64,000 bases of DNA, from the NCBI GenBank assembly GCA_025336685.1, contig GCA_025336685.1_4717.1. One strand, written 5' to 3'. Position 1 is the stretch's first letter. The number at the start of each line of letters is the position of its first letter. Below are positions 1,122-63,947 of this stretch, piece by piece. Below the pieces are notes generated by a model. The model saw nothing but the letters and a program-made list of their open reading frames with translations, was not told the origin of the DNA and ran no database searches. The stretch comes from Escherichia coli. Lineage in GTDB: Bacteria; Pseudomonadota; Gammaproteobacteria; Enterobacterales; Enterobacteriaceae. Both the position numbers and the translations under genes were made by a program.

Positions 1122-1153
1122 CCCTCCTCCAACCCATCAGGGAAGGAGGAGGG
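1122..1153 (-). terminator. intrinsic terminator hairpin (9-bp CCCTCCTCC/GGAGGAGGG stem, 14-nt loop)
   Basis: Perfect stem 1122-1130/1145-1153 directly downstream of the 1171..1545 gene; minus-strand RNA continues UUAUGCU; sits between convergent genes. Confidence 0.6.
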
Positions 1154-2145: not shown

Positions 2146-4758
2146 TTATACGTCCGGCGTAAAATCAAAAGGAACGTCCGTACGAATGATATCATAACGT
2201 TTTCCTAAGAAATAGAACTCTTCGGGAACCAGACCGGGAATAATGCTATCGCCGATGAACTGTGGGTATGCCCAGATGTACTGAGTGAGTCCTTCGAACA
2301 TATCCAGGTTATTTGCGTGGTTACCCATGATACGTTTCCAGAGTTCGCGTTTATACGGTGTTTTGACATCGAACCCATAAAGCGGTGCGAGGTCTTCGCC
2401 AGGAACAAACCCCAGGTAATAGTGGATCTGACTAACCGGGAACCCAAGCGTATCTCGCGGAATGGTGATCGCTTGCTCGGCCTTGGTGACATGCGTCTCA
2501 ATAATCCAGTCGTAGCACTCCGAATAGAACCGATCGAATTTCTCTGGATTATACCACGCTTTGGGAAGATTCAGTTTCTCCGTGAACGCGTTCGACATGA
2601 TCGTCGGCAAGAACGGAAGAACGCCGGTTTTGATCTGCGTGTATTTCGATTTTACCCGATTGACTAGATTCCAGCAACTGTATCCTAATTGATCGTTGCA
2701 GAACTCAACGTAGAGATCGTAATCCCCACCCGATAATGGATTATTAATATCGCCGATGTCTGCCGCATATTTGTTGGGGTATCGGTTATTGAAAGCCAGT
2801 TTGGTTTGGTAATCGTAAATGCACGGTTTATTGTTCTTCGTGTTAATCCACCACCAGGGTTCACCCACCTGCACACAAATGTCTTGGACATGCGGGTAGA
2901 TGATATCAGCAAACGCGGTTAACACATCCCCTAACCACGCCATCGCGTGTTGGTTGCATGGCGACAACAACCAAGACGGCGGCGTATATCCGGTTGCTGC
3001 TATGTTTCCTTCCCAATCCTGCTGCGCCCACTCGAACGGGCATGCCGTGCTCATCAATTCGTAACTTAAACTGATTGTAACAGAGAAATGGTGTTTTGCA
3101 GCGTATGCGGCGAAAGCTTCATGCCATGCGATACAGGGTGGGTTGAGTACATCTGTGGTGTTCACCAGTAACTTACTCGCACTTGGTGTCCAGACAGTAT
3201 CGTAGAAATGCGACATTCCAACATAGTGCACTAATTCATCTTGATATCCCGCATAAACCAGGTTCTCAAATACGCGTTCCGGCGTGATGTTGTAATGGTC
3301 GTCATAAGCGGTTATCGCACGAAGCTCGTGTGGTGTACATTGGTGACGATTAACCGTCATTTCCTGATACACCCCATCAATAGGAAGAATCTCGAGGGTT
3401 AAACCGAGGTCGATCGGTGTTTCCAGGTAGGTCGTTTCTGTAGCACCTTCCTTATAATGTCGAGAACTCATGCTGAACATCAACGACGTGACCGATTCGA
3501 GTTCGATAGGTTCGTCAGCATAGAACCCCGCCATTGCGTCGTTGAAATCGATCGTTACGATTGCGCTTCTACCATCTTCAGAGACGTCGGTGGCGTATCG
3601 GGTTAATGAGATATACTGACGGCTATCGTCTTTGTGTACGACGGTTAAAACCGGCGGGTTTTCGGTATCCGCAAAGTTACGCTGATCGCCAGTAAACGTG
3701 ATCTTGGCTTTAAAGATCAAACCGAACAACGACGTCATGGGATCATACGCAACACAACCATGATCTAGCGTATCCGTTGTCCGCCATTCTATCCCTACCA
3801 ACCCGTTAGCGGTATGGCATCGCATATACGCATTAAGTGTCATGTCTTCACTGACAACCGCGAAGTTCTCTGTAGATTGACCGTTGATAATCCAATACAT
3901 CGGTTGCCAGAGGTTACGCGTGCCTTTTGCGTAGCGGTAGGTTGGTGCGCCTTTAGGGTTGCCGTTATTGAGATGGAATACAGCCGTACCTTGGTAATGA
4001 TCGTTCGTGTTAATCGGAACACTGTACGCGTCGCCGAGGTCCGTACGTTCGACCTTCGTGACAGTTGCGTTTTCAAACAGCCCACGTAGTGTAGGAAGAC
4101 CAATGTCATCAGGCGCGTTTTCTCGGCGAATCGCGTCCGCGATGCGGTGGGCTAGGGCGGGGTAAATGGTCTCACCCTGCTGTAGGTTTGCAAGACCTAC
4201 AAAGCGATCGGGGTTGATACCAGCAATCAATAACTCGACATCGCCCTTCGTTCTATCGTCATGGAGGTATTTCAGTCCAGTAAGATCAAGATGTTGAATT
4301 AACGACAACAGATTGTACTTACGGTTTTCAACAGTCAGTACAAGATCACCTGCCCAAACCAAACTTCCCTCATCCGCCGTTACTCTAACGGATTGGCGGC
4401 CTGTGGTAGACGTTGTTGTCGTTTTATTTAATTGTCCTTGTAGGAAGTCGGTTGCGAGGTCAAAGGCAACGCCGTAACGGTCAGCGACCGCCTGCATGAT
4501 TTCACGTAACTGGGTATCTTCTTCAATGATGATCTTGACAGGTATTCCCAAGAACGCCTTGGCGAGGTCTCGCTTAACCATCGAGACGAATACGGATTTG
4601 TAATATCGGCCTCCATCTTTCCCTTTAAAAAGAATGGAGGTTGTTTCGGGTGACGATAGAACACGTGCAAATTCAACATCGTCGAAAGTAAGAGAAAGTC
4701 CGTTTTTCTCGTTGGTTAATCTTAGTATTTCATTTTGCGCGGTTTCATGTAACTTCAT
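2146..4758 (-). CDS. tail spike/fibre-like receptor-binding protein (870 aa) with shared N-terminal anchor domain
   Basis: N-terminal ~170 aa (KRDLAKAFLGIPVKI...VWAGDL) paralogous to four other proteins in the window; large distal domain of unknown fold; TGAGG SD. Confidence 0.55.
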   Translation of the reverse strand: MKLHETAQNEILRLTNEKNGLSLTFDDVEFARVLSSPETTSILFKGKDGGRYYKSVFVSMVKRDLAKAFLGIPVKIIIEEDTQLREIMQAVADRYGVAFDLATDFLQGQLNKTTTTSTTGRQSVRVTADEGSLVWAGDLVLTVENRKYNLLSLIQHLDLTGLKYLHDDRTKGDVELLIAGINPDRFVGLANLQQGETIYPALAHRIADAIRRENAPDDIGLPTLRGLFENATVTKVERTDLGDAYSVPINTNDHYQGTAVFHLNNGNPKGAPTYRYAKGTRNLWQPMYWIINGQSTENFAVVSEDMTLNAYMRCHTANGLVGIEWRTTDTLDHGCVAYDPMTSLFGLIFKAKITFTGDQRNFADTENPPVLTVVHKDDSRQYISLTRYATDVSEDGRSAIVTIDFNDAMAGFYADEPIELESVTSLMFSMSSRHYKEGATETTYLETPIDLGLTLEILPIDGVYQEMTVNRHQCTPHELRAITAYDDHYNITPERVFENLVYAGYQDELVHYVGMSHFYDTVWTPSASKLLVNTTDVLNPPCIAWHEAFAAYAAKHHFSVTISLSYELMSTACPFEWAQQDWEGNIAATGYTPPSWLLSPCNQHAMAWLGDVLTAFADIIYPHVQDICVQVGEPWWWINTKNNKPCIYDYQTKLAFNNRYPNKYAADIGDINNPLSGGDYDLYVEFCNDQLGYSCWNLVNRVKSKYTQIKTGVLPFLPTIMSNAFTEKLNLPKAWYNPEKFDRFYSECYDWIIETHVTKAEQAITIPRDTLGFPVSQIHYYLGFVPGEDLAPLYGFDVKTPYKRELWKRIMGNHANNLDMFEGLTQYIWAYPQFIGDSIIPGLVPEEFYFLGKRYDIIRTDVPFDFTPDV

Positions 4759-6246: not shown

Positions 6247-6303
6247 AGCTCCCCCATCCTCCCAACCCGTAAGGGAAGGGAGGATGTAAGGGAAGGAGGA
6301 GCT
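6247..6303 (-). terminator. nested GC-rich hairpin terminator
   Basis: Inner stem CATCCTCCC/GGGAGGATG (6255-6263/6278-6286) with loop AACCCGTAAGGGAA, enclosed by AGCTCC/GGAGCT; downstream of the lipoprotein gene. Confidence 0.5.
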
Positions 6304-26873: not shown

Positions 26874-26894
26874 ACCCTCCCATACCGGGAGGGT
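26874..26894 (-). terminator. intrinsic terminator hairpin
   Basis: ACCCTCCC/GGGAGGGT stem, 5-nt loop, followed on the minus strand by UUUAUGCUG. Confidence 0.6.
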
Positions 26895-43268: not shown

Positions 43269-43289
43269 AGCCTCCCATTACGGGAGGCT
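43269..43289 (-). terminator. intrinsic terminator hairpin
   Basis: AGCCTCCC/GGGAGGCT 8-bp stem, loop ATTAC, followed on the minus strand by UUUUAUGCCG. Confidence 0.65.
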
Positions 43290-44866: not shown

Positions 44867-44898
44867 CCCTCCTCCTTCCCTGATGGGTTGGAGGAGGG
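44867..44898 (-). terminator. intrinsic terminator hairpin, loop-inverted copy of the 1122-1153 element
   Basis: Same 9-bp CCCTCCTCC/GGAGGAGGG stem and flanks (cataa ... aatatgct) as 1122-1153, but the 14-nt loop is the reverse complement. Confidence 0.6.
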
Positions 44899-51314: not shown

Positions 51315-51332
51315 CCCTCCCCGAAGGGAGGG
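51315..51332 (-). terminator. intrinsic terminator hairpin
   Basis: CCCTCCC-CGAA-GGGAGGG followed on the minus strand by UUUAUGCCG. Confidence 0.6.
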
Positions 51333-53161: not shown

Positions 53162-53240
53162 GGATTTGTGTTGGTCCGTTTCGATGCCCATCGTATTTTA
53201 TGGATTGTCGAATGACGTCATTTTAAGGGACATCCCCGAC

Positions 53241-53276
53241 CTCCTCCCCACACCTTTCCAGGGGAGGAGTTTTATC
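53241..53276 (+). terminator. plus-strand terminator-like hairpin in the leader of the SNF2 gene (attenuator or small-RNA terminator)
   Basis: CTCCTCCCC/GGGGAGGAG 9-bp stem, 11-nt loop, followed by TTTTATC; sits 30 nt upstream of the SNF2 start. Confidence 0.45.
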
Positions 53277-56956: not shown

Positions 56957-56989
56957 CTTCCTCCCTACCCATAACGGGCGGGGAGGAAG
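56957..56989. terminator. bidirectional terminator between convergent genes
   Basis: CTTCCTCCC/GGGAGGAAG stem with 15-nt loop; A9 run on one side and TTTATG on the other gives a U-tract on both strands. Confidence 0.65.
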
Positions 56990-57006: not shown

Positions 57007-57345
57007 TTAGAACCAGAGTTCTTTCATGAGGTAGGCTTCCATATCGTAGATAAGCCACTCGTCAGGAATTTCTAAAGGATCGTCTTCGGTTAAGGTCAGC
57101 ATGTGCAGGGCGAACGCACGCTTAATATCGTTCAGCAGTTTCTCGTCGTCGTAACCTTCGGGTAGTTTACGGTCTACCAGTTGGGTTTGTTTATAGACAG
57201 CACAGAACGCTTCAGGGCTATGTTTGTCCATCGGAAATTGTTCGGCGGCCTGGACCATCGTCAACGTCCAGCTTACAACATTGTAACGCTCACCGTTAAT
57301 TTCACTGAACTGATCATCGATTAAACAGATTTGTTGTACGTTCAT
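57007..57345 (-). CDS. hypothetical acidic protein (112 aa)
   Basis: ORF, D/E-rich. Confidence 0.4.
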   Translation of the reverse strand: MNVQQICLIDDQFSEINGERYNVVSWTLTMVQAAEQFPMDKHSPEAFCAVYKQTQLVDRKLPEGYDDEKLLNDIKRAFALHMLTLTEDDPLEIPDEWLIYDMEAYLMKELWF

Positions 57346-58235
57346 TCATTTTCTCCATTCTTATCTTGGTCGCAATCGCACTCTTCGACGTCTTTCTTAC
57401 TTAAACGTAAGACACCAAGTGCGGCATGCTTGAGTTCTTGCAACGCGCTTTTCAGCTGACCTTCTTCATCGAAATCAAAATACTTCTCGTTGTAGCTTAA
57501 TGCTGGAATCATATTTACGAGAGGCTCGATGGCAGGCATCAACATTTCAATAACAACCTTAGGATCAACAAAGCGTTCAAACCCTTCAGGAAGTTTGCTT
57601 ACCACAACTTTATCGTTCTTGATGAAGAATTTGTTCTTGAACAAATCGTCAAGAATAGCGTTCTCTTCATCCGTACGTTTTGCGTGAGGACGATCGATCA
57701 TCTGCACAAACACATCACTCAACGCTTCAGGCAAGGTCGGATTTTCACGAAGAGAAGTTCCAGCCGGAATTTCAATATCGATCTTTGCCCACTCAACAAC
57801 CTGGTGATCTCGTGTGTAGATAACATCGACTTCCCATGCCAGGCCGTCCGGACTTTCTACGGTGTAGCGTGTTTTCGCCTGACCTTCCGGAGCCATACGC
57901 TCGATAGCATCAAACATCTCGACTGGAATTTCGACTTCGCTTTCCGTTGCATCGCCTGGACCACGATACACCTTCGTGGTCATGATGTATTTCGGTTCTT
58001 CGTTATCGATCTGTATAGCTCGTGCTCGTACTTGACCTTTCACACCACCAACGGCCGTGTTATCAAACAACCATTGATGTTGCACCATATGTTCGATTTT
58101 TGATGCTACTTGACGAAGACGCTCAACACCATCCTCAGCCAGTTTACCAAAGAAGACCAGCTCACGTTCCTGCTGTGTCTCACCACTTAACATCATTAAA
58201 TTGGCGATTTGTTTCACGCCTCTTACTTTTGACAT
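57342..58235 (-). CDS. hypothetical protein (297 aa)
   Basis: ORF with GGAG SD, acidic. Confidence 0.45.
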   Translation of the reverse strand: MSKVRGVKQIANLMMLSGETQQERELVFFGKLAEDGVERLRQVASKIEHMVQHQWLFDNTAVGGVKGQVRARAIQIDNEEPKYIMTTKVYRGPGDATESEVEIPVEMFDAIERMAPEGQAKTRYTVESPDGLAWEVDVIYTRDHQVVEWAKIDIEIPAGTSLRENPTLPEALSDVFVQMIDRPHAKRTDEENAILDDLFKNKFFIKNDKVVVSKLPEGFERFVDPKVVIEMLMPAIEPLVNMIPALSYNEKYFDFDEEGQLKSALQELKHAALGVLRLSKKDVEECDCDQDKNGENE

Positions 58236-58303: not shown

Positions 58304-59878
58304 TTACAATTCAAAATCTTCATCGATAACGCGCTGGGTAAGCACTTTGTCGCTGAAGAACTCCACCTTGCGCTGATGGTATTTACGATGCGCTTCGATA
58401 GAAGTACATACCAGATACCAGAAGGTTGGCGTCATTCCTTCAAACTTCCCTTTCAGCTGACGCAGTCGCCCCAACACCTGAATGTTACCGGTTCGTGACC
58501 CCATCGCTAACGTCATGAACGCCATCACCAAGTCAGGAAGGTCGATGCCCGTACCTGCCGATTTCACCGTCGTAACGCTAATATCGTTATCCAACAAGAC
58601 CATGAAATCTTCTTCAGCCGTATAAGGACCGATCTCTAACTCAGGAATACGTTCACTGAGATAATGCGACAACGACTTACACATATCAACGGTTGCACAA
58701 TACACCAGCATCTTCATACCTTCCTGATACTGGTTCATGAAACCTTTGATGATAACCGTATAGATAAAGTTGAAATACGCGAGTTTGAGCTGCTTGTTCT
58801 TCATGATAGACTGTTCGAATATCGTGTGAGAATAAGAACCCCCAAACCCTTTGTATCTGACTTTATCTGTACTACGTAGTCGATACGTCACGGCATTTAC
58901 CGCAATGTATTTCTTGTATTCGCCTTTCGCATAACGGGCTTCTTTCGGATACATCAAATACAACATCCGCTCGATGAACGGATCATCGGACACCGCCGTT
59001 GCTGACAGATAGATGATTTCCGGAATACTAGCGTAACACTTGACCTTAAACAAGAAATGCAATGCTTCATGGCACTCGTCATGAATCAGAAGGCCTATGC
59101 CGGTCTTTTCCCAAAACTCAGCGGGATGAAAGGCATACGGCGCAACGCAGTTATTCTTCTCGTAGTCCGCAATATAACGTTGGAACATGTTCAAGGAGAA
59201 CAATGCGATTTTGAAGTCGAGTTCACCTTGTTCAACCAAGGTTTGAAACTCCAACATACTGTAACGAGGAATGTCGGGATGCGGTGGATCCTCCTTAGCG
59301 TTCCCGCGTATCTCGATAACGTCCCCTGGTTCCATCCCGAAGAAGTTCAGCAGTGAGCTTCGCCAACCTGGCATGTATCTCGGCGACAGAATGATACCCG
59401 TCCGTACACCGCGTCGGAAGGTAATCTCCTGCGACATGGCCGTTTTTCCCGACCCTGTTTGAGCGGTGTTTAGACTCATTCTGAAGGGGGTATCCTTACC
59501 CCCATTCATGTACTCCAACCATTCTTGCTGATCTTCACGCCATGGGAACTTCCATTTCTTTACGAACTCCACTTCTTTACCTGGTGCCGGATCGTGATAA
59601 ACGATTTCCAACCACTCTTTTCGTATCCCTCGGGAAAAGATAAAATCCAAAAACGATTTCAACTGTTCGCGGAGTAAGTATACCTCGCTATAATCGCTTC
59701 TCGCTGCGGCATACGTGTTTATGGTATCGGTAACCATTCTCCGTGTACGAGGGTCGCGCCGTTTCCTCAGATGCAAACAACGGTCTCGAAGGTAATGGCC
59801 GATAAGATGGGCAAATCGAAGTCCGTATCCGCTCAGCTTCATGCCATGCGAGAAGACGTCGATACGAGCTAACTTCAT
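58304..59878 (-). CDS. SF2 DExH-box helicase (524 aa)
   Basis: Walker A AQTGSGKT, Walker B LIHDECHE, motif III LSAT, C-terminal helicase domain. Confidence 0.7.
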   Translation of the reverse strand: MKLARIDVFSHGMKLSGYGLRFAHLIGHYLRDRCLHLRKRRDPRTRRMVTDTINTYAAARSDYSEVYLLREQLKSFLDFIFSRGIRKEWLEIVYHDPAPGKEVEFVKKWKFPWREDQQEWLEYMNGGKDTPFRMSLNTAQTGSGKTAMSQEITFRRGVRTGIILSPRYMPGWRSSLLNFFGMEPGDVIEIRGNAKEDPPHPDIPRYSMLEFQTLVEQGELDFKIALFSLNMFQRYIADYEKNNCVAPYAFHPAEFWEKTGIGLLIHDECHEALHFLFKVKCYASIPEIIYLSATAVSDDPFIERMLYLMYPKEARYAKGEYKKYIAVNAVTYRLRSTDKVRYKGFGGSYSHTIFEQSIMKNKQLKLAYFNFIYTVIIKGFMNQYQEGMKMLVYCATVDMCKSLSHYLSERIPELEIGPYTAEEDFMVLLDNDISVTTVKSAGTGIDLPDLVMAFMTLAMGSRTGNIQVLGRLRQLKGKFEGMTPTFWYLVCTSIEAHRKYHQRKVEFFSDKVLTQRVIDEDFEL

Positions 59879-61881
59879 AACGTGAATACATCCTCCGGTT
59901 TAGGTTCTTTGCGCGGTAAAAGCATGTAGTCGATCGGATGATCCGGCTTCATGGTTGGGATATAACTGTTCGGGTTTTGGAACGCATCCAGCTGCTCTTG
60001 GTGAGCGAACTTCATACTCAAGGAGCGCATGTTCATGTTCTTCTTGAAGGTACTGAAGTATCGTGTTGTTCCCTGTTTCGGCATGCGATAATCTTTCGTG
60101 TGTGGTGAACGAATCATGCTAGCGTAGAGAATAACATCGAGATGCGAAAGGTTCATTCGCAGACGCTGGGCACACAGGCGATGCCAATAGTACAGCACGT
60201 TTGCAACTTCTTCCGGTGTAGCTTCGTCTTCCGAGAGGAATCCGGCACTGAAAGAACCTTTCCCGAATTTGAACTCACGTTCGATTTCTTTTGCGTACTC
60301 CATCATGTTTTTGTGGATTAACGGCATCTGGAATAACGTACGTGAATTGTCCCAGTGTTTCAAGTCGAAAATCACAATCCCGTCAGACGTCACTTCCCAG
60401 CTATGGCGTTTAAGATAACGGATAAACGCTTTACTCGGTACAACAGGACGTCCGCAGAAATCGAAATTGACTTTGAGCTTACGATAGCTTTCATCTTTCC
60501 TGTCGTAAATCTCCATATCGCAAAGCGTCATGTTAAACAGACGCTGTGGTATCAGCGAACTGATTTCTTCCGCTTCAGCTACATCGTACAACATGTTCGC
60601 AAGACCTAACTTCATCTTAATCAACACGTGTTTACCTTTCAGCTCACGTGCGAGTTTGATGTCGTTCATGTTCTGGCTGTAGCGAAGGATATGTTGATAT
60701 TCCGGTGGGATTGGTGCTGTGGATACCGTTGACGAACCATCGTGGTGTTTGGTAGAAAGAATGTTCTGCGTTACCTGTTGCGAGCAGGTACGTGCTGCAC
60801 CATCACCGACATTATCAGTCAATGCGAAGTTATGGCTCAATTCACCATAACACGTCGTGCATACCCCAGCAGGATCGGGATGATGACAATAGTTAACGGA
60901 GCGCATGCGTACCGTCGTGCCGATCAATTCTTTCATGTGTGGTTGTATCGCTACCAACGAACCGTCATCACGAATAATGAATCGACCGTGGAAGCCGCGT
61001 AGGTCGGTCTCATCACGGATTGGCATCGGGATGGCCTCTCTACTACCACAATCACCAGGATGTAGTCGTTGCACAACCGCTGTCGCTATCTGAAGTTCGC
61101 GACCGAAATATTCGGACTTTTTAATCTGCTCTTTGTTGAACAGCAGCGATTTCGCCGCAGAACGACTTTCTTTCAAGCTGTCAGGAAGAGAGATCAAACC
61201 GGCTGCATACGACCGCATTACCGGATCGCGGAATATCTCGGAGTTAATATCGGTCAAGAATCCACGCATCCCAATACACTGTAGCACCTGCCCAATCGAA
61301 ACGTGTTCGGTTCTTACCGCACGTGCGATAGGGTTTGCATGTAACGTTTTATCGGTGCTCAGTACCTTTGTCAATTTCTTGTATGCGCTTTCGATACCTT
61401 CGCGGGTGGGTTCCGCTTCAGCGATGATTTTCTTAACTTCAGGGTGTACAGTAATCTGATAAAAATCGTCCGCACAAATAGTTGTTACGTATTCCTCCAA
61501 CGCATACGTAAAGAAGTTATACACATTGTTAAACATATCGAACAATGCTTTCCAGAGAACCTCACGATTCTCTTGTGGGTAAGCATACATGCATTGACGA
61601 TACGCTGCGCTTTGCAACGCAACCGACGAACCAGCAGTAAACTTGCGTTTATCCACCAGGTTCTCTTTTGTCAATGGTGTCTCAGGATACATGCGATGCA
61701 CAGACCAGTGCATGTAACTAAAGAAAATGCGTCGTGCGCGCAATTCATGAACGCCATCGTCCATCTCGATATATACACGGTCGTTAGGCTGTGCCCACTC
61801 GAATACCTCATCAACCGGCCAGTGCATAAGCTCGCGTGCCCTCACACGACGTTTCGTGGTGGTCGTCTGTGTTGTAGTCAT
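59875..61881 (-). CDS. large hypothetical protein (668 aa), replication/recombination-associated by context
   Basis: 4-nt overlap with the helicase gene; basic Thr-rich N-terminus; no polymerase or primase motif recognised. Confidence 0.45.
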   Translation of the reverse strand: MTTTQTTTTKRRVRARELMHWPVDEVFEWAQPNDRVYIEMDDGVHELRARRIFFSYMHWSVHRMYPETPLTKENLVDKRKFTAGSSVALQSAAYRQCMYAYPQENREVLWKALFDMFNNVYNFFTYALEEYVTTICADDFYQITVHPEVKKIIAEAEPTREGIESAYKKLTKVLSTDKTLHANPIARAVRTEHVSIGQVLQCIGMRGFLTDINSEIFRDPVMRSYAAGLISLPDSLKESRSAAKSLLFNKEQIKKSEYFGRELQIATAVVQRLHPGDCGSREAIPMPIRDETDLRGFHGRFIIRDDGSLVAIQPHMKELIGTTVRMRSVNYCHHPDPAGVCTTCYGELSHNFALTDNVGDGAARTCSQQVTQNILSTKHHDGSSTVSTAPIPPEYQHILRYSQNMNDIKLARELKGKHVLIKMKLGLANMLYDVAEAEEISSLIPQRLFNMTLCDMEIYDRKDESYRKLKVNFDFCGRPVVPSKAFIRYLKRHSWEVTSDGIVIFDLKHWDNSRTLFQMPLIHKNMMEYAKEIEREFKFGKGSFSAGFLSEDEATPEEVANVLYYWHRLCAQRLRMNLSHLDVILYASMIRSPHTKDYRMPKQGTTRYFSTFKKNMNMRSLSMKFAHQEQLDAFQNPNSYIPTMKPDHPIDYMLLPRKEPKPEDVFTL

Positions 61882-62026: not shown

Positions 62027-62512
62027 TTATCCAGCTTCCTGTTGTAAAGCGTATGGATCCATAGCGTCTGACATATTCGCAAAAACGGTGAGAATAAACC
62101 CCTTTATCTGTCTCACCTCGGTTACACGAAGCCCTTTATCATTACGGTATACGTTTTCTTCACCGACCAACTTCGGCCTGACAGCATAAACCCCATCAAC
62201 AAACGGGAATGTCGGATACGGATAAACGCCGATACGAATGATGTTTGGGTAATCACCTCGAAGGTCACGCCCAAATGTATCTACTCTACCGTAAACCGTT
62301 CCATCCACACCCTCCACTTCAATGAGATCATTTCGAATATCCTGAAATAGCTGCTCTAACGTGTCGGCGGGGTACGTATATGCGACACCTAACGCTGGAT
62401 CCTCAATGGTTTTGACACTGAATCCGTTAAGCCAAACAATCTGTTCATCCGCCCATGTTTCTTCATATACCGTTAATCCATCGCCGTATATGTTGGCGTG
62501 TGCTATCTCCAT
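62027..62512 (-). CDS. hypothetical protein (161 aa)
   Basis: ORF with GAGGAAA SD. Confidence 0.45.
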   Translation of the reverse strand: MEIAHANIYGDGLTVYEETWADEQIVWLNGFSVKTIEDPALGVAYTYPADTLEQLFQDIRNDLIEVEGVDGTVYGRVDTFGRDLRGDYPNIIRIGVYPYPTFPFVDGVYAVRPKLVGEENVYRNDKGLRVTEVRQIKGFILTVFANMSDAMDPYALQQEAG

Positions 62513-62626
62513 AATCTCATTTCCTCTTATACGTTAGGATAGATGACATGTTGGATATACGTTGCCTTTGCATATATTGCTTTATTTCCGTCAGAAATAA
62601 CGGAAAATAAAAACAACGACATAGTT

Positions 62627-62656
62627 CCCTCCCACCTCCACACGGGAGAGGGAGGG
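62627..62656 (-). terminator. intrinsic terminator hairpin
   Basis: CCCTCCC/GGGAGGG stem with nested CTCC/GGAG pairing, followed on the minus strand by a U-rich run. Confidence 0.55.
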
Positions 62657-62669
62657 TTAGTCATGTTTA

Positions 62670-63035
62670 TTACTCTATGCTGTCTTCTTCAGCACAATCC
62701 TCTTCGGAACCGTCGAACGTTTTCTGCACCGCGGTGGTATCCCAGTTGGCGGCGTAATCAGCCATCGCTTCGCGCAACGCTTCTTCACCAGCATCACCGG
62801 CCAGGTCAAGCACAACCAAACCTTGCGCGACGTTTTGAGCGACTGTATCAATAACGGTTGCATCTTCTTCAAAACTACGTACCGGTTCAATGGTGCCTAC
62901 ATCAACAGCATAGTTCGTGGTCGCTGTAAGCACGGCGACTTGTAGCGCATCGCTATTATCATCATCATGCAATGCTGCTTCAATACCGATTGGACGGGCC
63001 AGTTCTTGCAGTGTTAATTTGCGAATTAAGTTCAT
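62670..63035 (-). CDS. strongly acidic small protein (121 aa), DNA-mimic candidate
   Basis: About 27 Asp/Glu versus 6 Lys/Arg (HDDDNSD, FEED, SEEDCAEEDSIE). Confidence 0.45.
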   Translation of the reverse strand: MNLIRKLTLQELARPIGIEAALHDDDNSDALQVAVLTATTNYAVDVGTIEPVRSFEEDATVIDTVAQNVAQGLVVLDLAGDAGEEALREAMADYAANWDTTAVQKTFDGSEEDCAEEDSIE

Positions 63036-63068
63036 TATGTTTTTCCTCAGGTGAATGTTAGCGATCGT

Positions 63069-63416
63069 TTAAAACTTTAAAACTTTTTCGATACGATGGT
63101 TGACAAGTTCATTGAACGATTCTTCAACTTGTTCAATAATTTCATCAACGTCGATATCTAATTGTTGGGGTTGGATAACATGCTCTTTCATGGTTTCTAG
63201 CCAGTATTCGGCTTTAACCATAACGTTAGCTACTTGTTCAACCTGACTACGTATGTCGACGATCTGACAGTCAGGATTTTTAATGTCGATGATGTGTCCA
63301 TGATGATTGATAAAACCTAGCTTATTCGTTGCTTTTACTGCATCGCGGGCAAGTTCTTGCAGGATTAAATTATTTACGTAGTTCACTGCTATGGAACGAT
63401 TTTCTTTATCACTCAT
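63069..63416 (-). CDS. hypothetical acidic protein (115 aa)
   Basis: ORF with AGAGGA SD; shares an LQELAR motif with the previous gene. Confidence 0.4.
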   Translation of the reverse strand: MSDKENRSIAVNYVNNLILQELARDAVKATNKLGFINHHGHIIDIKNPDCQIVDIRSQVEQVANVMVKAEYWLETMKEHVIQPQQLDIDVDEIIEQVEESFNELVNHRIEKVLKF

Positions 63417-63496
63417 ACCAGGGATCCTCTTTTTAAGTCTTCACATTCTAGTGTTAAGCAGTTAAAATAAACCGTCCCTTTAATCAGCATAAACAT

Positions 63497-63525
63497 CCTC
63501 CTCCCACCACATGGGTAGGAGGAGG
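63497..63525 (-). terminator. intrinsic terminator hairpin
   Basis: CCTCCTCC/GGAGGAGG 8-bp stem, 13-nt loop, followed on the minus strand by AUGUUUAUGCUG. Confidence 0.6.
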
Positions 63526-63536
63526 CGTAATATACA

Positions 63537-63947
63537 TCAGAAAGGAGGACGATCTTTAAATTCTAGCAACGTGTCTTCGAAGCAAGCGATGAGTTCAGAC
63601 TGCAATTCTGTTCGGCCTTGTTCACCGAAAAGTTCCAGCAACATTAACCCCCGAGCGGTCTTCGTAGCAACCTCTTCGCAGATACAGAGATTGTGGACTT
63701 CATCATCGTCAACATCTTTACGTAACTGTGCCGCAATGGGCTTAAGATTGCCGTTTTCATCGTATTCGTCACGAAATGCATCATAAGCCGCATCGATGTT
63801 CGCTATCCGTGTCAATCCTTCAGAATCCCGCCAGTCTCGATATAATCCAAGCAGACGGTTATGATTCTTCGTTTTGATGTTCGGTGCCGGAAGGTTGCGT
63901 AACAGATGTGGTGTAATCCTTGCTATAACGCTATCCGAATGGTCCAT
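63537..63947 (-). CDS. hypothetical protein (136 aa)
   Basis: ORF, acidic C-terminal half. Confidence 0.4.
   Translation of the reverse strand: MDHSDSVIARITPHLLRNLPAPNIKTKNHNRLLGLYRDWRDSEGLTRIANIDAAYDAFRDEYDENGNLKPIAAQLRKDVDDDEVHNLCICEEVATKTARGLMLLELFGEQGRTELQSELIACFEDTLLEFKDRPPF

What the first reader, a model, noticed from the sequence alone, without database searches (positions are those of the whole stretch)
62670..63035. Strongly acidic 121-aa protein: possible DNA mimic or anti-restriction factor
The product has about 27 Asp/Glu against 6 Lys/Arg, with acidic clusters (HDDDNSD, SFEEDATVID, DGSEEDCAEEDSIE). It lies in a run of small acidic ORFs (57007..58235, 63069..63947) at the upstream end of a leftward early operon. 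The composition is typical of DNA-mimic anti-restriction proteins.
Basis: partly seen in the sequence, partly recalled or inferred. Interest (0 to 1): 0.45.

Follow-up and report, generated by a model that had tools for sequence, protein, structure and literature searches.

The report
Conserved acidic early protein, Goslar gp168 ortholog
This is a real, expressed, very acidic small protein found only in Goslar-like nucleus-forming jumbo phages of E. coli; its conserved negative charge fits a nucleic-acid-mimicking decoy, but nothing yet shows that it blocks restriction enzymes.

Summary
ORF 62670..63035 (-) encodes 121 aa with 27 D/E against 6 K/R and pI 4.05. It is the most acidic of about 92 genes in the window.

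The window is a Goslar-like chimallivirus (nucleus-forming jumbo phage). The ORF is the 98%-identical ortholog of Goslar gp168.

- **Real gene.** dN/dS against Goslar is 0.019, and peptides of the ortholog were found by published mass spectrometry.
- **Orphan family.** It has two 50%-identity clusters among 1.84 billion representative proteins. It matches nothing in Pfam, PHROGs, NCBIfam, PADLOC or PDB sequences.
- **Conserved charge.** All 24 members keep 26-27 D/E and 5-7 K/R. The core is nearly invariant. The C-terminal tail varies in sequence but keeps 9-10 acidic residues.
- **Context.** It lies in a roughly 2-kb lineage-specific insertion that splits two non-virion RNA polymerase genes. 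These genes are adjacent in phiKZ, Ea35-70 and RSL2.
- **Published Goslar data.** The transcript is early-class. The protein was estimated at about 219 copies per virion in purified preparations, which also contained PhuZ and chimallin.
- **Structure.** Two AlphaFold2 runs failed (pLDDT 40-42), so a DNA-like surface could not be tested.

Verdict: an acidic early accessory protein, probably a polyanionic decoy with an unknown partner. A specific anti-restriction role is possible but unsupported. Interest is moderate to low.

The parts
62670..63035 (-). CDS of the 121-aa acidic protein, the ortholog of Goslar gp168 (YP_009820853.1).
   Evidence: ORF listing. Composition. 98% aa identity to Goslar gp168. 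dN/dS 0.019. Peptides of the ortholog seen by LC-MS/MS.
62736..62945 (-). Codons 31-100, the nearly invariant core. It includes LTATTNYAVDVGTIE and LAGDAGEEALREAMADYAANWD.
   Evidence: Only 4 of 70 columns vary among 23 close homologs. Most residues are also kept in the 50%-identity relative.
62673..62735 (-). Codons 101-121, the C-terminal acidic tail. Its sequence varies but its charge is conserved.
   Evidence: 18 of 21 columns vary, yet every member has 9-10 D/E and 0-2 K/R in the tail.
63044..63048 (-). GAGGA ribosome-binding site, 8 nt upstream of the ATG.
   Evidence: Upstream sequence printed.
62628..62655 (-). CCTCC...GGAGG stem-loop 14 nt after the stop codon, followed by a T-rich tract. 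It is the likely terminator of the gp169-gp168 unit.
   Evidence: Fold energy -26.7 kcal/mol, z = -3.15. Member of an 11-site hairpin family, with 16 pattern matches against 0.41 expected. Flanks shown.
63069..63416 (-). Upstream gene, the 115-aa gp169 ortholog (pI 5.0). It is separated from the acidic ORF by only 33 nt and is probably co-transcribed with it.
   Evidence: The ortholog was also detected in the virion preparation at about 92 copies and is early-class.
63497..63525 (-). 12-bp CCTCC...GGAGG stem-loop just after the gp170 stop, followed by TGTTTATGC (63487-63495). It marks the upstream boundary of the gp169-gp168 cassette.
   Evidence: Found by the terminator scan. Fold energy -33.7 kcal/mol, z = -5.27. 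Motif shown.
63537..63947 (-). gp170 ortholog (136 aa, pI 4.86). It may be a distant paralog of the acidic protein over about 36 residues.
   Evidence: hhalign of the two family alignments aligned 36 columns with P = 3e-4 and probability 39.5%. The gene stays syntenic with gp168 in the distant relative L002.
62027..62512 (-). gp166 ortholog (161 aa, pI 4.31), the last gene of the lineage-specific insertion.
59875..61881 (-). Non-virion RNA polymerase subunit, the homolog of phiKZ gp74 (Goslar gp165). It flanks the insertion.
   Evidence: tblastn hit to PHIKZ074, 29.5% identity, E = 2e-82. The preprint lists the virion polymerase subunits as gp78, gp196, gp205, gp207 and gp210, so gp165 is not one of them.

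Best explanation
**What it is.** The ORF is a genuine, translated, early-class gene. It is the ortholog of Goslar gp168 and belongs to an orphan family confined to Goslar-like chimalliviruses. The protein has an almost invariant core of about 100 residues. Its C-terminal tail changes in sequence but keeps its negative charge.

**Proposed mechanism.** I propose that it acts stoichiometrically as a polyanionic ligand, not as an enzyme. Its acidic surface and tail would occupy a basic, nucleic-acid-binding surface on a partner protein. In that sense it 'works like' a DNA or RNA mimic or decoy. It also accumulates enough to travel with large phage assemblies.

**Shown.**
- The gene is real and under strong purifying selection.
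- The charge is conserved across the family.
- The gene sits in a lineage-specific accessory insertion.
- For the 98%-identical Goslar ortholog, the transcript is early-class and the protein is abundant in purified virion preparations.

**Inferred.**
- The decoy mechanism itself.
- The identity of the partner. In my order of preference this is a host DNA-binding defence or nucleoid protein, then the phage's own basic virion or internal proteins, then the non-virion RNA polymerase.
For: **Conserved charge.** Total D+E is 26-27 and K+R is 5-7 in all 24 members, including the 50%-identity relative. The tail varies at 18 of 21 columns but always keeps 9-10 acidic residues. This is the pattern expected when charge rather than sequence is under selection.

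**Acidity.** It is the most acidic of 92 genes in the window.

**No enzyme signature.** There is no enzyme-like or other family match.

**Selection.** dN/dS is 0.019, from 14 synonymous changes and 1 nonsynonymous change.

**Accessory context.** It lies in a roughly 2-kb insertion that splits polymerase genes which are adjacent in phiKZ, Ea35-70 and RSL2. Stem-loops bound the cassette. The arrangement is kept in divergent Goslar-like contigs and in the distant relative.

**Early-class transcript.** In the ChmA knockdown the log2 fold change is +0.84 to +1.12. Chimallin behaves the same way, whereas structural genes fall by 3 to 7 log2 units.

**Protein evidence.** The ortholog was seen with 8 peptides and 50% coverage, at an estimated 219 copies per virion.
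Against: - There is no usable structure. AlphaFold2 gave pLDDT 39.7 and 41.9, and the two runs disagree on secondary structure.
- No partner is known.
- Acidity alone is not specific. 27% of the window's genes have pI below 5.
- The core is as constrained as an RNA polymerase subunit. That suggests a conserved phage-internal interaction rather than a host arms race.
- The protein could be a structural or assembly component whose charge is incidental.
- The virion association is unverified. The same preparation contained PhuZ at about 171 copies and chimallin at about 126 copies, which the authors treat as co-purifying assemblies.
Confidence: 0.4

Rival explanations
1. It is an Ocr/ArdA-type anti-restriction DNA mimic. 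The early protein would bind the DNA-binding groove of type I R-M enzymes or BREX and protect incoming unmodified phage DNA.
For: The size, pI 4.05 and net charge of -21 resemble Ocr and ArdA (the comparison values are from my own knowledge). The ortholog's transcript is early-class. The gene sits in a lineage-specific accessory insertion, as anti-defence genes often do. Chimalliviruses do carry extra anti-defence proteins despite the nucleus (abstract of PMC13309987).
Against: It does not match the Ocr or ArdA Pfam profiles, or any other profile, at E up to 1. No structural model is available to show a DNA-like surface. The chimallivirus genome is already sequestered from restriction enzymes and DNA-targeting Cas nucleases (abstract of PMC11077065). 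dN/dS of 0.019 and a near-invariant core are not what an arms-race gene usually shows.
Confidence: 0.12
2. It is a virion-packaged internal protein, possibly ejected on infection. Its job would be inside the capsid or in the early-infection (EPI) vesicle, for example as a partner or charge counterweight for basic internal proteins. It would not be a decoy for DNA-binding proteins.
For: LC-MS/MS of CsCl-purified Goslar virions estimates about 219 copies per virion (range 146-344). The authors list it among the 12 most abundant unmodelled proteins. A soluble 12.9-kDa protein should not survive PEG precipitation and CsCl banding unless it is bound to a large particle (inference). Some modelled structural proteins, gp172, gp243 and gp233, are also early-class transcripts.
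Against: All four proteins that GFP tagging showed to be packaged (gp60, gp61, gp208, gp209) are late-class, with log2 fold changes of -3 to -6.6, and so is the injected internal protein gp58. gp168 instead behaves like PhuZ and chimallin, which are present at similar 'copy numbers' as contaminating assemblies. It has no PF12699 domain. Packing a protein of net charge -21 next to condensed DNA is electrostatically unfavourable (inference). gp168 itself has not been tested by GFP tagging.
Confidence: 0.25
3. [quoted passage not shown] This would explain why it is encoded between two polymerase subunit genes and why it co-purifies with nuclear-shell fragments.
For: It lies between the homologs of phiKZ gp71/73 and gp74. 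Linkage to the polymerase beta-like gene is kept in the distant relative L002. Its conservation is close to that of the polymerase. Against L002 the protein is 50% identical and the polymerase subunit 65%. Against Goslar, dN/dS is 0.019 for gp168 and 0.012 for the polymerase gene gp165. It is transcribed with the polymerase genes at a similar read density. The virion preparation also captured chimallin and ChmC.
Against: The protein is absent from all other chimalliviruses. There the two polymerase genes abut each other, so it cannot be a core subunit. There is no interaction or localisation evidence.
Confidence: 0.1
4. It is not a functional gene. The open frame would be a chance ORF, or a decaying one with biased composition.
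For: None beyond its small size and the lack of database matches.
Against: Against Goslar there are 14 synonymous changes and 1 nonsynonymous change. It is conserved in all Goslar-like contigs examined and in a 50%-identity relative. It has a good ribosome-binding site. Eight peptides of the ortholog were detected.
Confidence: 0.01

Closest known systems
Goslar gp168 (HOV27_gp168, YP_009820853.1), hypothetical protein of Escherichia phage vB_EcoM_Goslar
   Same: It is 98% identical over the full length, with the same neighbours and the same flanking stem-loops. It is the same gene in a sister genome.
   Different: The window's copy has one extra residue in the acidic loop (DDDNSD instead of DEDSD). 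Nothing is known about function for either copy. The only data on the Goslar protein are early-class RNA-seq and abundance in virion mass spectrometry.
T7 Ocr (gp0.3; Pfam PF08684), a DNA-mimic inhibitor of type I R-M and BREX
   Same: It is a small, early-expressed phage protein with pI near 4 and a large net negative charge (the Ocr properties are from my own knowledge).
   Different: There is no sequence relationship. The fold is unknown. The host phage already hides its DNA in an early vesicle and then in a protein nucleus. Much of the charge lies in a loop and in a probably disordered tail, so a rigid array of carboxylates on helices has not been shown.
ArdA (Pfam PF07275), the plasmid and transposon anti-restriction DNA mimic
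   Same: The protein is strongly acidic, and the proposed mode of action is competitive.
   Different: There is no profile match. It is smaller, at 121 aa against roughly 165 aa (from my own knowledge). It is encoded by a lytic jumbo phage rather than a conjugative element.
Other small acidic phage decoys aimed at different targets: T7 gp5.9 (RecBCD, MukBEF), T4 Arn (McrBC, H-NS), phi29 p56 and PBS Ugi (UDG), SPO1 Gp44 (RNA polymerase)
   Same: They are small, acidic and lineage-restricted, and they lack mutual sequence similarity. They show that 'acidic early phage protein' does not imply type I R-M as the target (papers listed: PMC9836394, PMC7617805, PMC3711442, PMC8208478).
   Different: None is homologous to this protein. 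No target has been identified for it.
Packaged, co-injected anti-restriction proteins: T4 IPI* and P1 DarA/DarB (from my own knowledge)
   Same: If the virion association is real, gp168 would be delivered with the DNA, as these proteins are.
   Different: Packaging of gp168 is unverified. There is no homology. T4 internal proteins are basic, whereas gp168 is highly acidic.

Membership tests
Ocr (PF08684) DNA-mimic anti-restriction family | Sequence match to the family profile | tested here: not met
   Pfam-A scan at E up to 1 returned 0 families. A profile search of PDB sequences gave only insignificant enzyme hits.
Ocr (PF08684) DNA-mimic anti-restriction family | Very low pI and a large net negative charge | tested here: met
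   27 D/E against 6 K/R, pI 4.05, net charge -21. The charge is conserved in all 24 family members.
Ocr (PF08684) DNA-mimic anti-restriction family | Folded surface, usually a dimer, that displays carboxylates in a B-DNA-like array | tested here: inconclusive
   Two AlphaFold2 runs gave mean pLDDT 39.7 and 41.9. One model is alpha/beta and the other all-helical. The models are too poor for surface analysis or fold search.
Ocr (PF08684) DNA-mimic anti-restriction family | Expressed at the very start of infection | tested here: met
   In published Goslar RNA-seq the ortholog's transcript is unaffected, or slightly raised, when infection is arrested at the early-vesicle stage (log2FC +0.84 to +1.12). 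This is literature data on the ortholog, not on this genome.
Ocr (PF08684) DNA-mimic anti-restriction family | Binds and inhibits type I R-M enzymes or BREX | not testable with these tools
   This needs plating and binding assays.
ArdA (PF07275) | Sequence match to the family profile | tested here: not met
   No Pfam hit at E up to 1.
Goslar gp168 orphan family | Full-length sequence similarity and conserved position between the gp170/gp169 and gp166 orthologs | tested here: met
   88-98% identity to 22 full-length clusters from Goslar-like contigs, 50% to one relative, and 98% to Goslar gp168 itself. Synteny shown.
Chimallivirus packaged or injected internal proteins (PF12699 'inner body' group and gp60/gp61-type proteins) | PF12699 domain | tested here: not met
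   No Pfam hit.
Chimallivirus packaged or injected internal proteins (PF12699 'inner body' group and gp60/gp61-type proteins) | Detected in purified virions | tested here: met
   Literature data on the ortholog: about 219 copies per virion, 8 peptides, 50% coverage. Caveat: PhuZ and chimallin were present at similar levels.
Chimallivirus packaged or injected internal proteins (PF12699 'inner body' group and gp60/gp61-type proteins) | Late-class transcription, as in the verified packaged proteins | tested here: not met
   gp58, gp60, gp61, gp208 and gp209 show log2FC of -3 to -6.6, whereas gp168 shows about +1. This is not a strict criterion. Modelled gp172, gp243 and gp233 are also early-class.
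Chimallivirus packaged or injected internal proteins (PF12699 'inner body' group and gp60/gp61-type proteins) | Capsid co-localisation and transfer into the next host, shown with tagged protein | not tested
   The preprint tested gp60, gp61, gp208 and gp209, but not gp168.
Non-virion RNA polymerase subunits of Chimalliviridae | Conserved across the family as part of the core genome | tested here: not met
   An exhaustive profile search found only two 50%-identity clusters. phiKZ, Ea35-70 and RSL2 have no gene between the two polymerase genes.

The most novel reading that the evidence does not exclude
gp168 is a genuinely packaged polyanionic decoy. It would be made early, loaded into or onto virions at about 200 copies, and delivered with the genome into the early-infection vesicle or the cytoplasm of the next host. 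There it would mimic nucleic acid and neutralise a host DNA-binding defence or nucleoid protein before any phage gene is expressed. That would be a new fold and a new delivery route for DNA mimicry in nucleus-forming phages.
Probability: 0.1. Interest if true: 0.65.

Novelty: new member of a known kind. Interest (0 to 1): 0.35.

Why it matters
Nucleus-forming jumbo phages are thought to rely on physical sequestration of their DNA instead of classical anti-restriction proteins. It would refine that picture if this abundant, charge-conserved acidic early protein, restricted to one lineage, turned out to be a nucleic-acid mimic, and more so if it is carried in the virion. It would also add a new fold to the short list of DNA mimics.

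If it is only a particle-associated structural partner, it helps account for one of the unexplained high-copy proteins in the Goslar virion proteome.

In either case the protein is small and tractable. Knockdown by CRISPRi-ART already works in Goslar.

Tried and rejected
1. **phiKZ early-promoter motif.** I recalled the consensus TATATTAC from memory, and one copy sits at 63527-63534 next to the upstream hairpin. The motif is not enriched in the window (3 matches against 2.6 expected), so I dropped it.
2. **Sigma-70 promoter scan.** It found 17 sites against 13.0 +/- 3.6 in shuffles. This is uninformative, and these phages use their own polymerases.
3. **N-terminal similarity between gp168 and gp169** (N-x-I/V-x-x-L-x-LQELAR). 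BLASTP gave E = 0.004 for the single comparison. The motif is not kept in the 50%-identity relative, which has LLEVLR. I treat it as chance or a recent event.
4. **Structure prediction.** I ran AlphaFold2 twice, with 12 and then 24 aligned sequences. Both gave pLDDT near 40 and contradictory secondary structure. I therefore ran no fold search, because matches to such models are meaningless.
5. **Searches against known families and structures.** PDB sequences, PADLOC and NCBIfam gave only sub-threshold chance hits to metabolic enzymes.
6. **More distant homologs.** A word-indexed search and an exhaustive profile search of 1.84 billion representatives found nothing beyond Goslar-like phages and one relative.
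7. **N-terminal processing.** I tried to read it from the published peptide list. The stored supplement is truncated alphabetically, so only the peptides EAMADYAANWDTTAVQK and ADYAANWDTTAVQK could be seen.
8. **The 140-aa gene in the gp169 slot of L009 and L010.** It looked like a gene replacement. It is gp169 with a longer called start.
9. **Fitness and restriction data.** I found no genome-wide fitness data for Goslar and no restriction-sensitivity data for Goslar-like phages.

Full report
**1. What is in the sequence**

The minus-strand ORF 62670..63035 starts with ATG, ends with TAA and encodes 121 aa. A GAGGA ribosome-binding site lies 8 nt upstream. The protein has 27 Asp/Glu, 6 Lys/Arg and 1 His, with pI 4.05 and a net charge of about -21 at pH 7.

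I called genes greedily across the window and obtained 92. This one is the most acidic, at -0.174 net charge per residue against a mean of +0.006 and an sd of 0.064. It is a real outlier but not an extreme one, since 27% of the window's genes have pI below 5. Six of the eight leftward genes between 57007 and 63947 have pI of 5 or below (P = 0.006). The 'run of acidic ORFs' is therefore also real.

**2. Where the window comes from**

The region is 93.2% identical in DNA to Escherichia phage vB_EcoM_Goslar. Goslar is a nucleus-forming jumbo phage of the family Chimalliviridae. The ORF is the ortholog of Goslar gp168 (HOV27_gp168 = Goslar_00168, YP_009820853.1), at 98% protein identity.

RefSeq gene numbers are the ones used in the papers cited below. 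Two checks support this. The preprint names RefSeq NC_048170.1, and it describes gp161 as a DUF7941 plus leucine-rich-repeat protein, which matches the RefSeq annotation.

The flanking large genes are annotated as RNA polymerase beta subunits. The product of 59875..61881 is the homolog of phiKZ gp74 (E = 2e-82). It is not among the five virion polymerase subunits listed for Goslar, which are gp78, gp196, gp205, gp207 and gp210. These flanking genes therefore encode subunits of the non-virion RNA polymerase.

**3. The gene is real**

Against Goslar the CDS carries 14 synonymous changes and 1 nonsynonymous change, giving dN/dS of 0.019. This is as constrained as the polymerase gene next door (0.012). 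It is much tighter than its small neighbours gp166 (0.18), gp169 (0.08) and gp170 (0.10). Published LC-MS/MS of Goslar identified 8 peptides covering 50% of the ortholog, including EAMADYAANWDTTAVQK.

**4. An orphan family**

- A word-indexed search of 5.8 billion clusters found only Goslar-like proteins at 88-98% identity and one relative at 50% identity. Many of the Goslar-like proteins come from contigs of about 240 kb in Escherichia, Shigella and Salmonella assemblies. The relative is P0024, on a 3.9-kb contig, L002.
- An exhaustive profile search of 1.84 billion representatives found the same two clusters and nothing else.
- Pfam, PHROGs, NCBIfam, PADLOC and PDB sequences gave no significant match.

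Sequence membership in the Ocr and ArdA families is therefore tested and not met.

**5. Anatomy of the protein**

Among the 23 close homologs, residues 31-100 vary at 4 of 70 columns and residues 1-23 at 2 of 23. The acidic loop 24-30 varies at 5 of 7 columns and the tail 101-121 at 18 of 21. Despite this, every member has 26-27 D/E and 5-7 K/R in total, and 9-10 acidic residues in the tail. That includes the 50%-identity relative.

A variable sequence with constant charge is what selection on charge itself would produce. This is the strongest internal evidence that the acidity is functional.

AlphaFold2 failed twice. Mean pLDDT was 39.7 with 12 sequences and 41.9 with 24. One model was alpha/beta and the other all-helical. 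The Goslar virion preprint reports that AlphaFold-predicted structures of gp168 and the other high-copy proteins suggested no function.

**6. Genomic context**

In phiKZ, Erwinia phage Ea35-70 and Ralstonia phage RSL2, the homologs of phiKZ gp71/73 and gp74 are directly adjacent and are followed by a helicase gene. In Goslar-like phages five small ORFs, gp170 to gp166 and about 2 kb in total, are inserted between them. The order is kept in the most divergent Goslar-like contigs, L009 and L010.

The distant relative L002 has the order polymerase gene, a 62-aa ORF, a gp170-like gene, a terminator-like hairpin and then a gp168-like gene. It lacks gp169. Between L002 and the Goslar group, the polymerase subunit is 65% identical, gp168 50% and gp170 30%.

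gp168 and gp170 share a 36-column motif of the form VAxxxAxGLxxLxLxGxxGxxxL. hhalign gave P = 3e-4 and probability 39.5%. This suggests distant paralogy but does not prove it.

gp169 and gp168 are 33 nt apart and lie between two strong stem-loops:
- 63497-63525, with fold energy -33.7 kcal/mol and z = -5.3;
- 62628-62655, with fold energy -26.7 kcal/mol and z = -3.2.

Both belong to a family of CCTCC...GGAGG hairpins with 11 sites in the window, giving 16 pattern matches against 0.41 expected. The pair therefore looks like a two-gene cassette inside a longer leftward block.

**7. Published data on the ortholog**

*Transcription.* In Goslar RNA-seq at 30 min, with and without knockdown of chimallin (ChmA), genes fall into two groups. 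Knockdown arrests infection at the early-vesicle stage. Structural genes drop by 3-7 log2 units. Early genes are unchanged or slightly raised. gp162-gp175 are all early-class. gp168 shows +0.84 to +1.12, the same as chimallin. The neighbouring rightward genes gp160 and gp161 fall by about 5 (bioRxiv 10.1101/2023.09.20.558163, Supplementary Table 2). Read density for gp168 is about 1.6 reads per nt, similar to the flanking polymerase genes (my arithmetic). The operon continues upstream beyond the window, so the 'upstream end' is an edge effect.

*Protein.* In LC-MS/MS of PEG- and CsCl-purified Goslar virions, gp168 is estimated at about 219 copies per virion (range 146-344). It is named among ten high-copy proteins of unknown function. 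gp169 is estimated at about 92 copies and gp162 at about 127 (bioRxiv 10.64898/2026.04.21.720040).

*Caveats on the protein data.*
- The authors state that the preparation also captured nucleus fragments and PhuZ filaments. Their table gives PhuZ at about 171 copies and chimallin at about 126.
- The four proteins verified as packaged by GFP tagging (gp60, gp61, gp208, gp209) are all late-class transcripts. gp168 was not tested this way.
- On the other hand, three modelled structural proteins, gp172, gp243 and gp233, are early-class. Transcript class therefore does not decide the matter.

**8. How it most likely works**

The evidence supports the following description. gp168 is a small non-enzymatic protein made early. 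It is abundant and lineage-specific. It has a tightly constrained core and a charge-conserved acidic tail, and it is physically associated with some large phage assembly.

The simplest mechanism is stoichiometric binding of a basic, nucleic-acid-binding surface on a partner. That amounts to a polyanionic decoy or nucleic-acid mimic. I give this a confidence of 0.4.

The partner is unknown, and I rank the more specific readings below that general one:
- **Type I R-M or BREX as the target (0.12).** The composition and timing fit. However, chimalliviruses already exclude restriction enzymes from their DNA (abstract of PMC11077065). The conservation pattern is also not arms-race-like.
- **A packaged internal protein with a purely capsid or vesicle role (0.25).** This rests on one mass-spectrometry dataset with known contaminants.
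- **A factor of the non-virion polymerase or the nucleus (0.10).** The gene's position fits, but the family is absent from all other chimalliviruses.
- **A spurious ORF.** This is excluded.

**9. Comparison with known families, and verdict**

The protein works, at most, like the diverse small acidic phage decoys. Examples are Ocr, ArdA, Arn, gp5.9, p56, Ugi and Gp44. It is not a sequence member of any of them. Its only established family is the uncharacterised Goslar gp168 group.

The ORF itself is already catalogued, and a 2026 preprint flagged it as an abundant virion-associated protein. The new points here are:
- the charge is conserved while the tail sequence varies;
- selection on the core is very strong;
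- the gene sits in a lineage-specific insertion that splits the polymerase genes;
- gp170 may be a paralog;
- the cassette is bounded by hairpins.

Interest is moderate to low (0.35). This is a reasonable and cheap experimental candidate, but not a surprise.

Noticed in passing
window 1123-1152, 4610-4640, 6258-6283, 26876-26892, 43271-43287, 44868-44897, 51316-51331, 53240-53267, 56960-56986, 62628-62655, 63497-63525: There is a family of CCTCC...GGAGG stem-loops, with 16 pattern matches against 0.41 expected. Most are followed on the minus strand by a conserved (T)TTATGC or TATGC. GGTTTATGC with up to one mismatch occurs 29 times against 14.9 expected. They are probably phage-specific terminators, perhaps combined with a start-site motif.
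   Followed up: partly
window 63537-63947 (-), and L002 2875-3294: The gp170 ortholog ends in an invariant D-x-PPF, which is also present in the 30%-identity relative. From memory this resembles the C-terminal tip of bacterial SSB (DDDIPF), which recruits many host DNA-metabolism proteins. It may be a tail mimic. The protein also shares a 36-residue motif with the acidic protein.
   Followed up: partly
window 62027-63947; compare L006 (phiKZ), L007 (Ea35-70), L008 (RSL2): Five small ORFs (gp166-gp170, about 2 kb) are inserted between two non-virion RNA polymerase genes. These genes are immediately adjacent in three other chimallivirus genera. The insertion is a lineage-specific accessory island inside a core block.
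   Followed up: yes
window 57007-57345 (-) and 63069-63416 (-): The orthologs of these two other small acidic ORFs, Goslar gp162 and gp169, are also reported in purified-virion mass spectrometry at about 127 and about 92 copies. Their transcripts are nevertheless early-class. Several further abundant but unverified 'virion' proteins (gp158, gp214, gp70) share this early-class pattern.
   Followed up: partly
window 62527-62664 (-): This 45-aa ORF overlaps the terminator-like hairpin. Goslar annotates only a 31-aa version (gp167), which starts after the hairpin. Its read density in the published RNA-seq is about one third of its neighbours'. It is doubtful as a gene.
   Followed up: no
window 62184-62208 (-): A hairpin followed by TTTATGC lies inside the gp166 coding sequence. 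It is the same module that follows intergenic hairpins elsewhere in the window.
   Followed up: no
homologs P0001-P0022: Most close homologs come from contigs of about 240 kb in assemblies labelled Shigella, Salmonella or E. coli. They appear to be complete Goslar-like phage genomes riding along in bacterial isolate sequencing. This matches papers on lytic phages found in bacterial assemblies (PMC12768965 and bioRxiv 10.1101/2024.12.31.630880, listed).
   Followed up: no
L009 3555-3977 and L010 3552-3977: In two divergent Goslar-like contigs, gp169 was called with a 25-residue N-terminal extension. The extension starts at the ATG inside the post-hairpin TTTATGCTG motif. In the window that ATG is out of frame with gp169, so the extension is probably an artefact.
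   Followed up: yes
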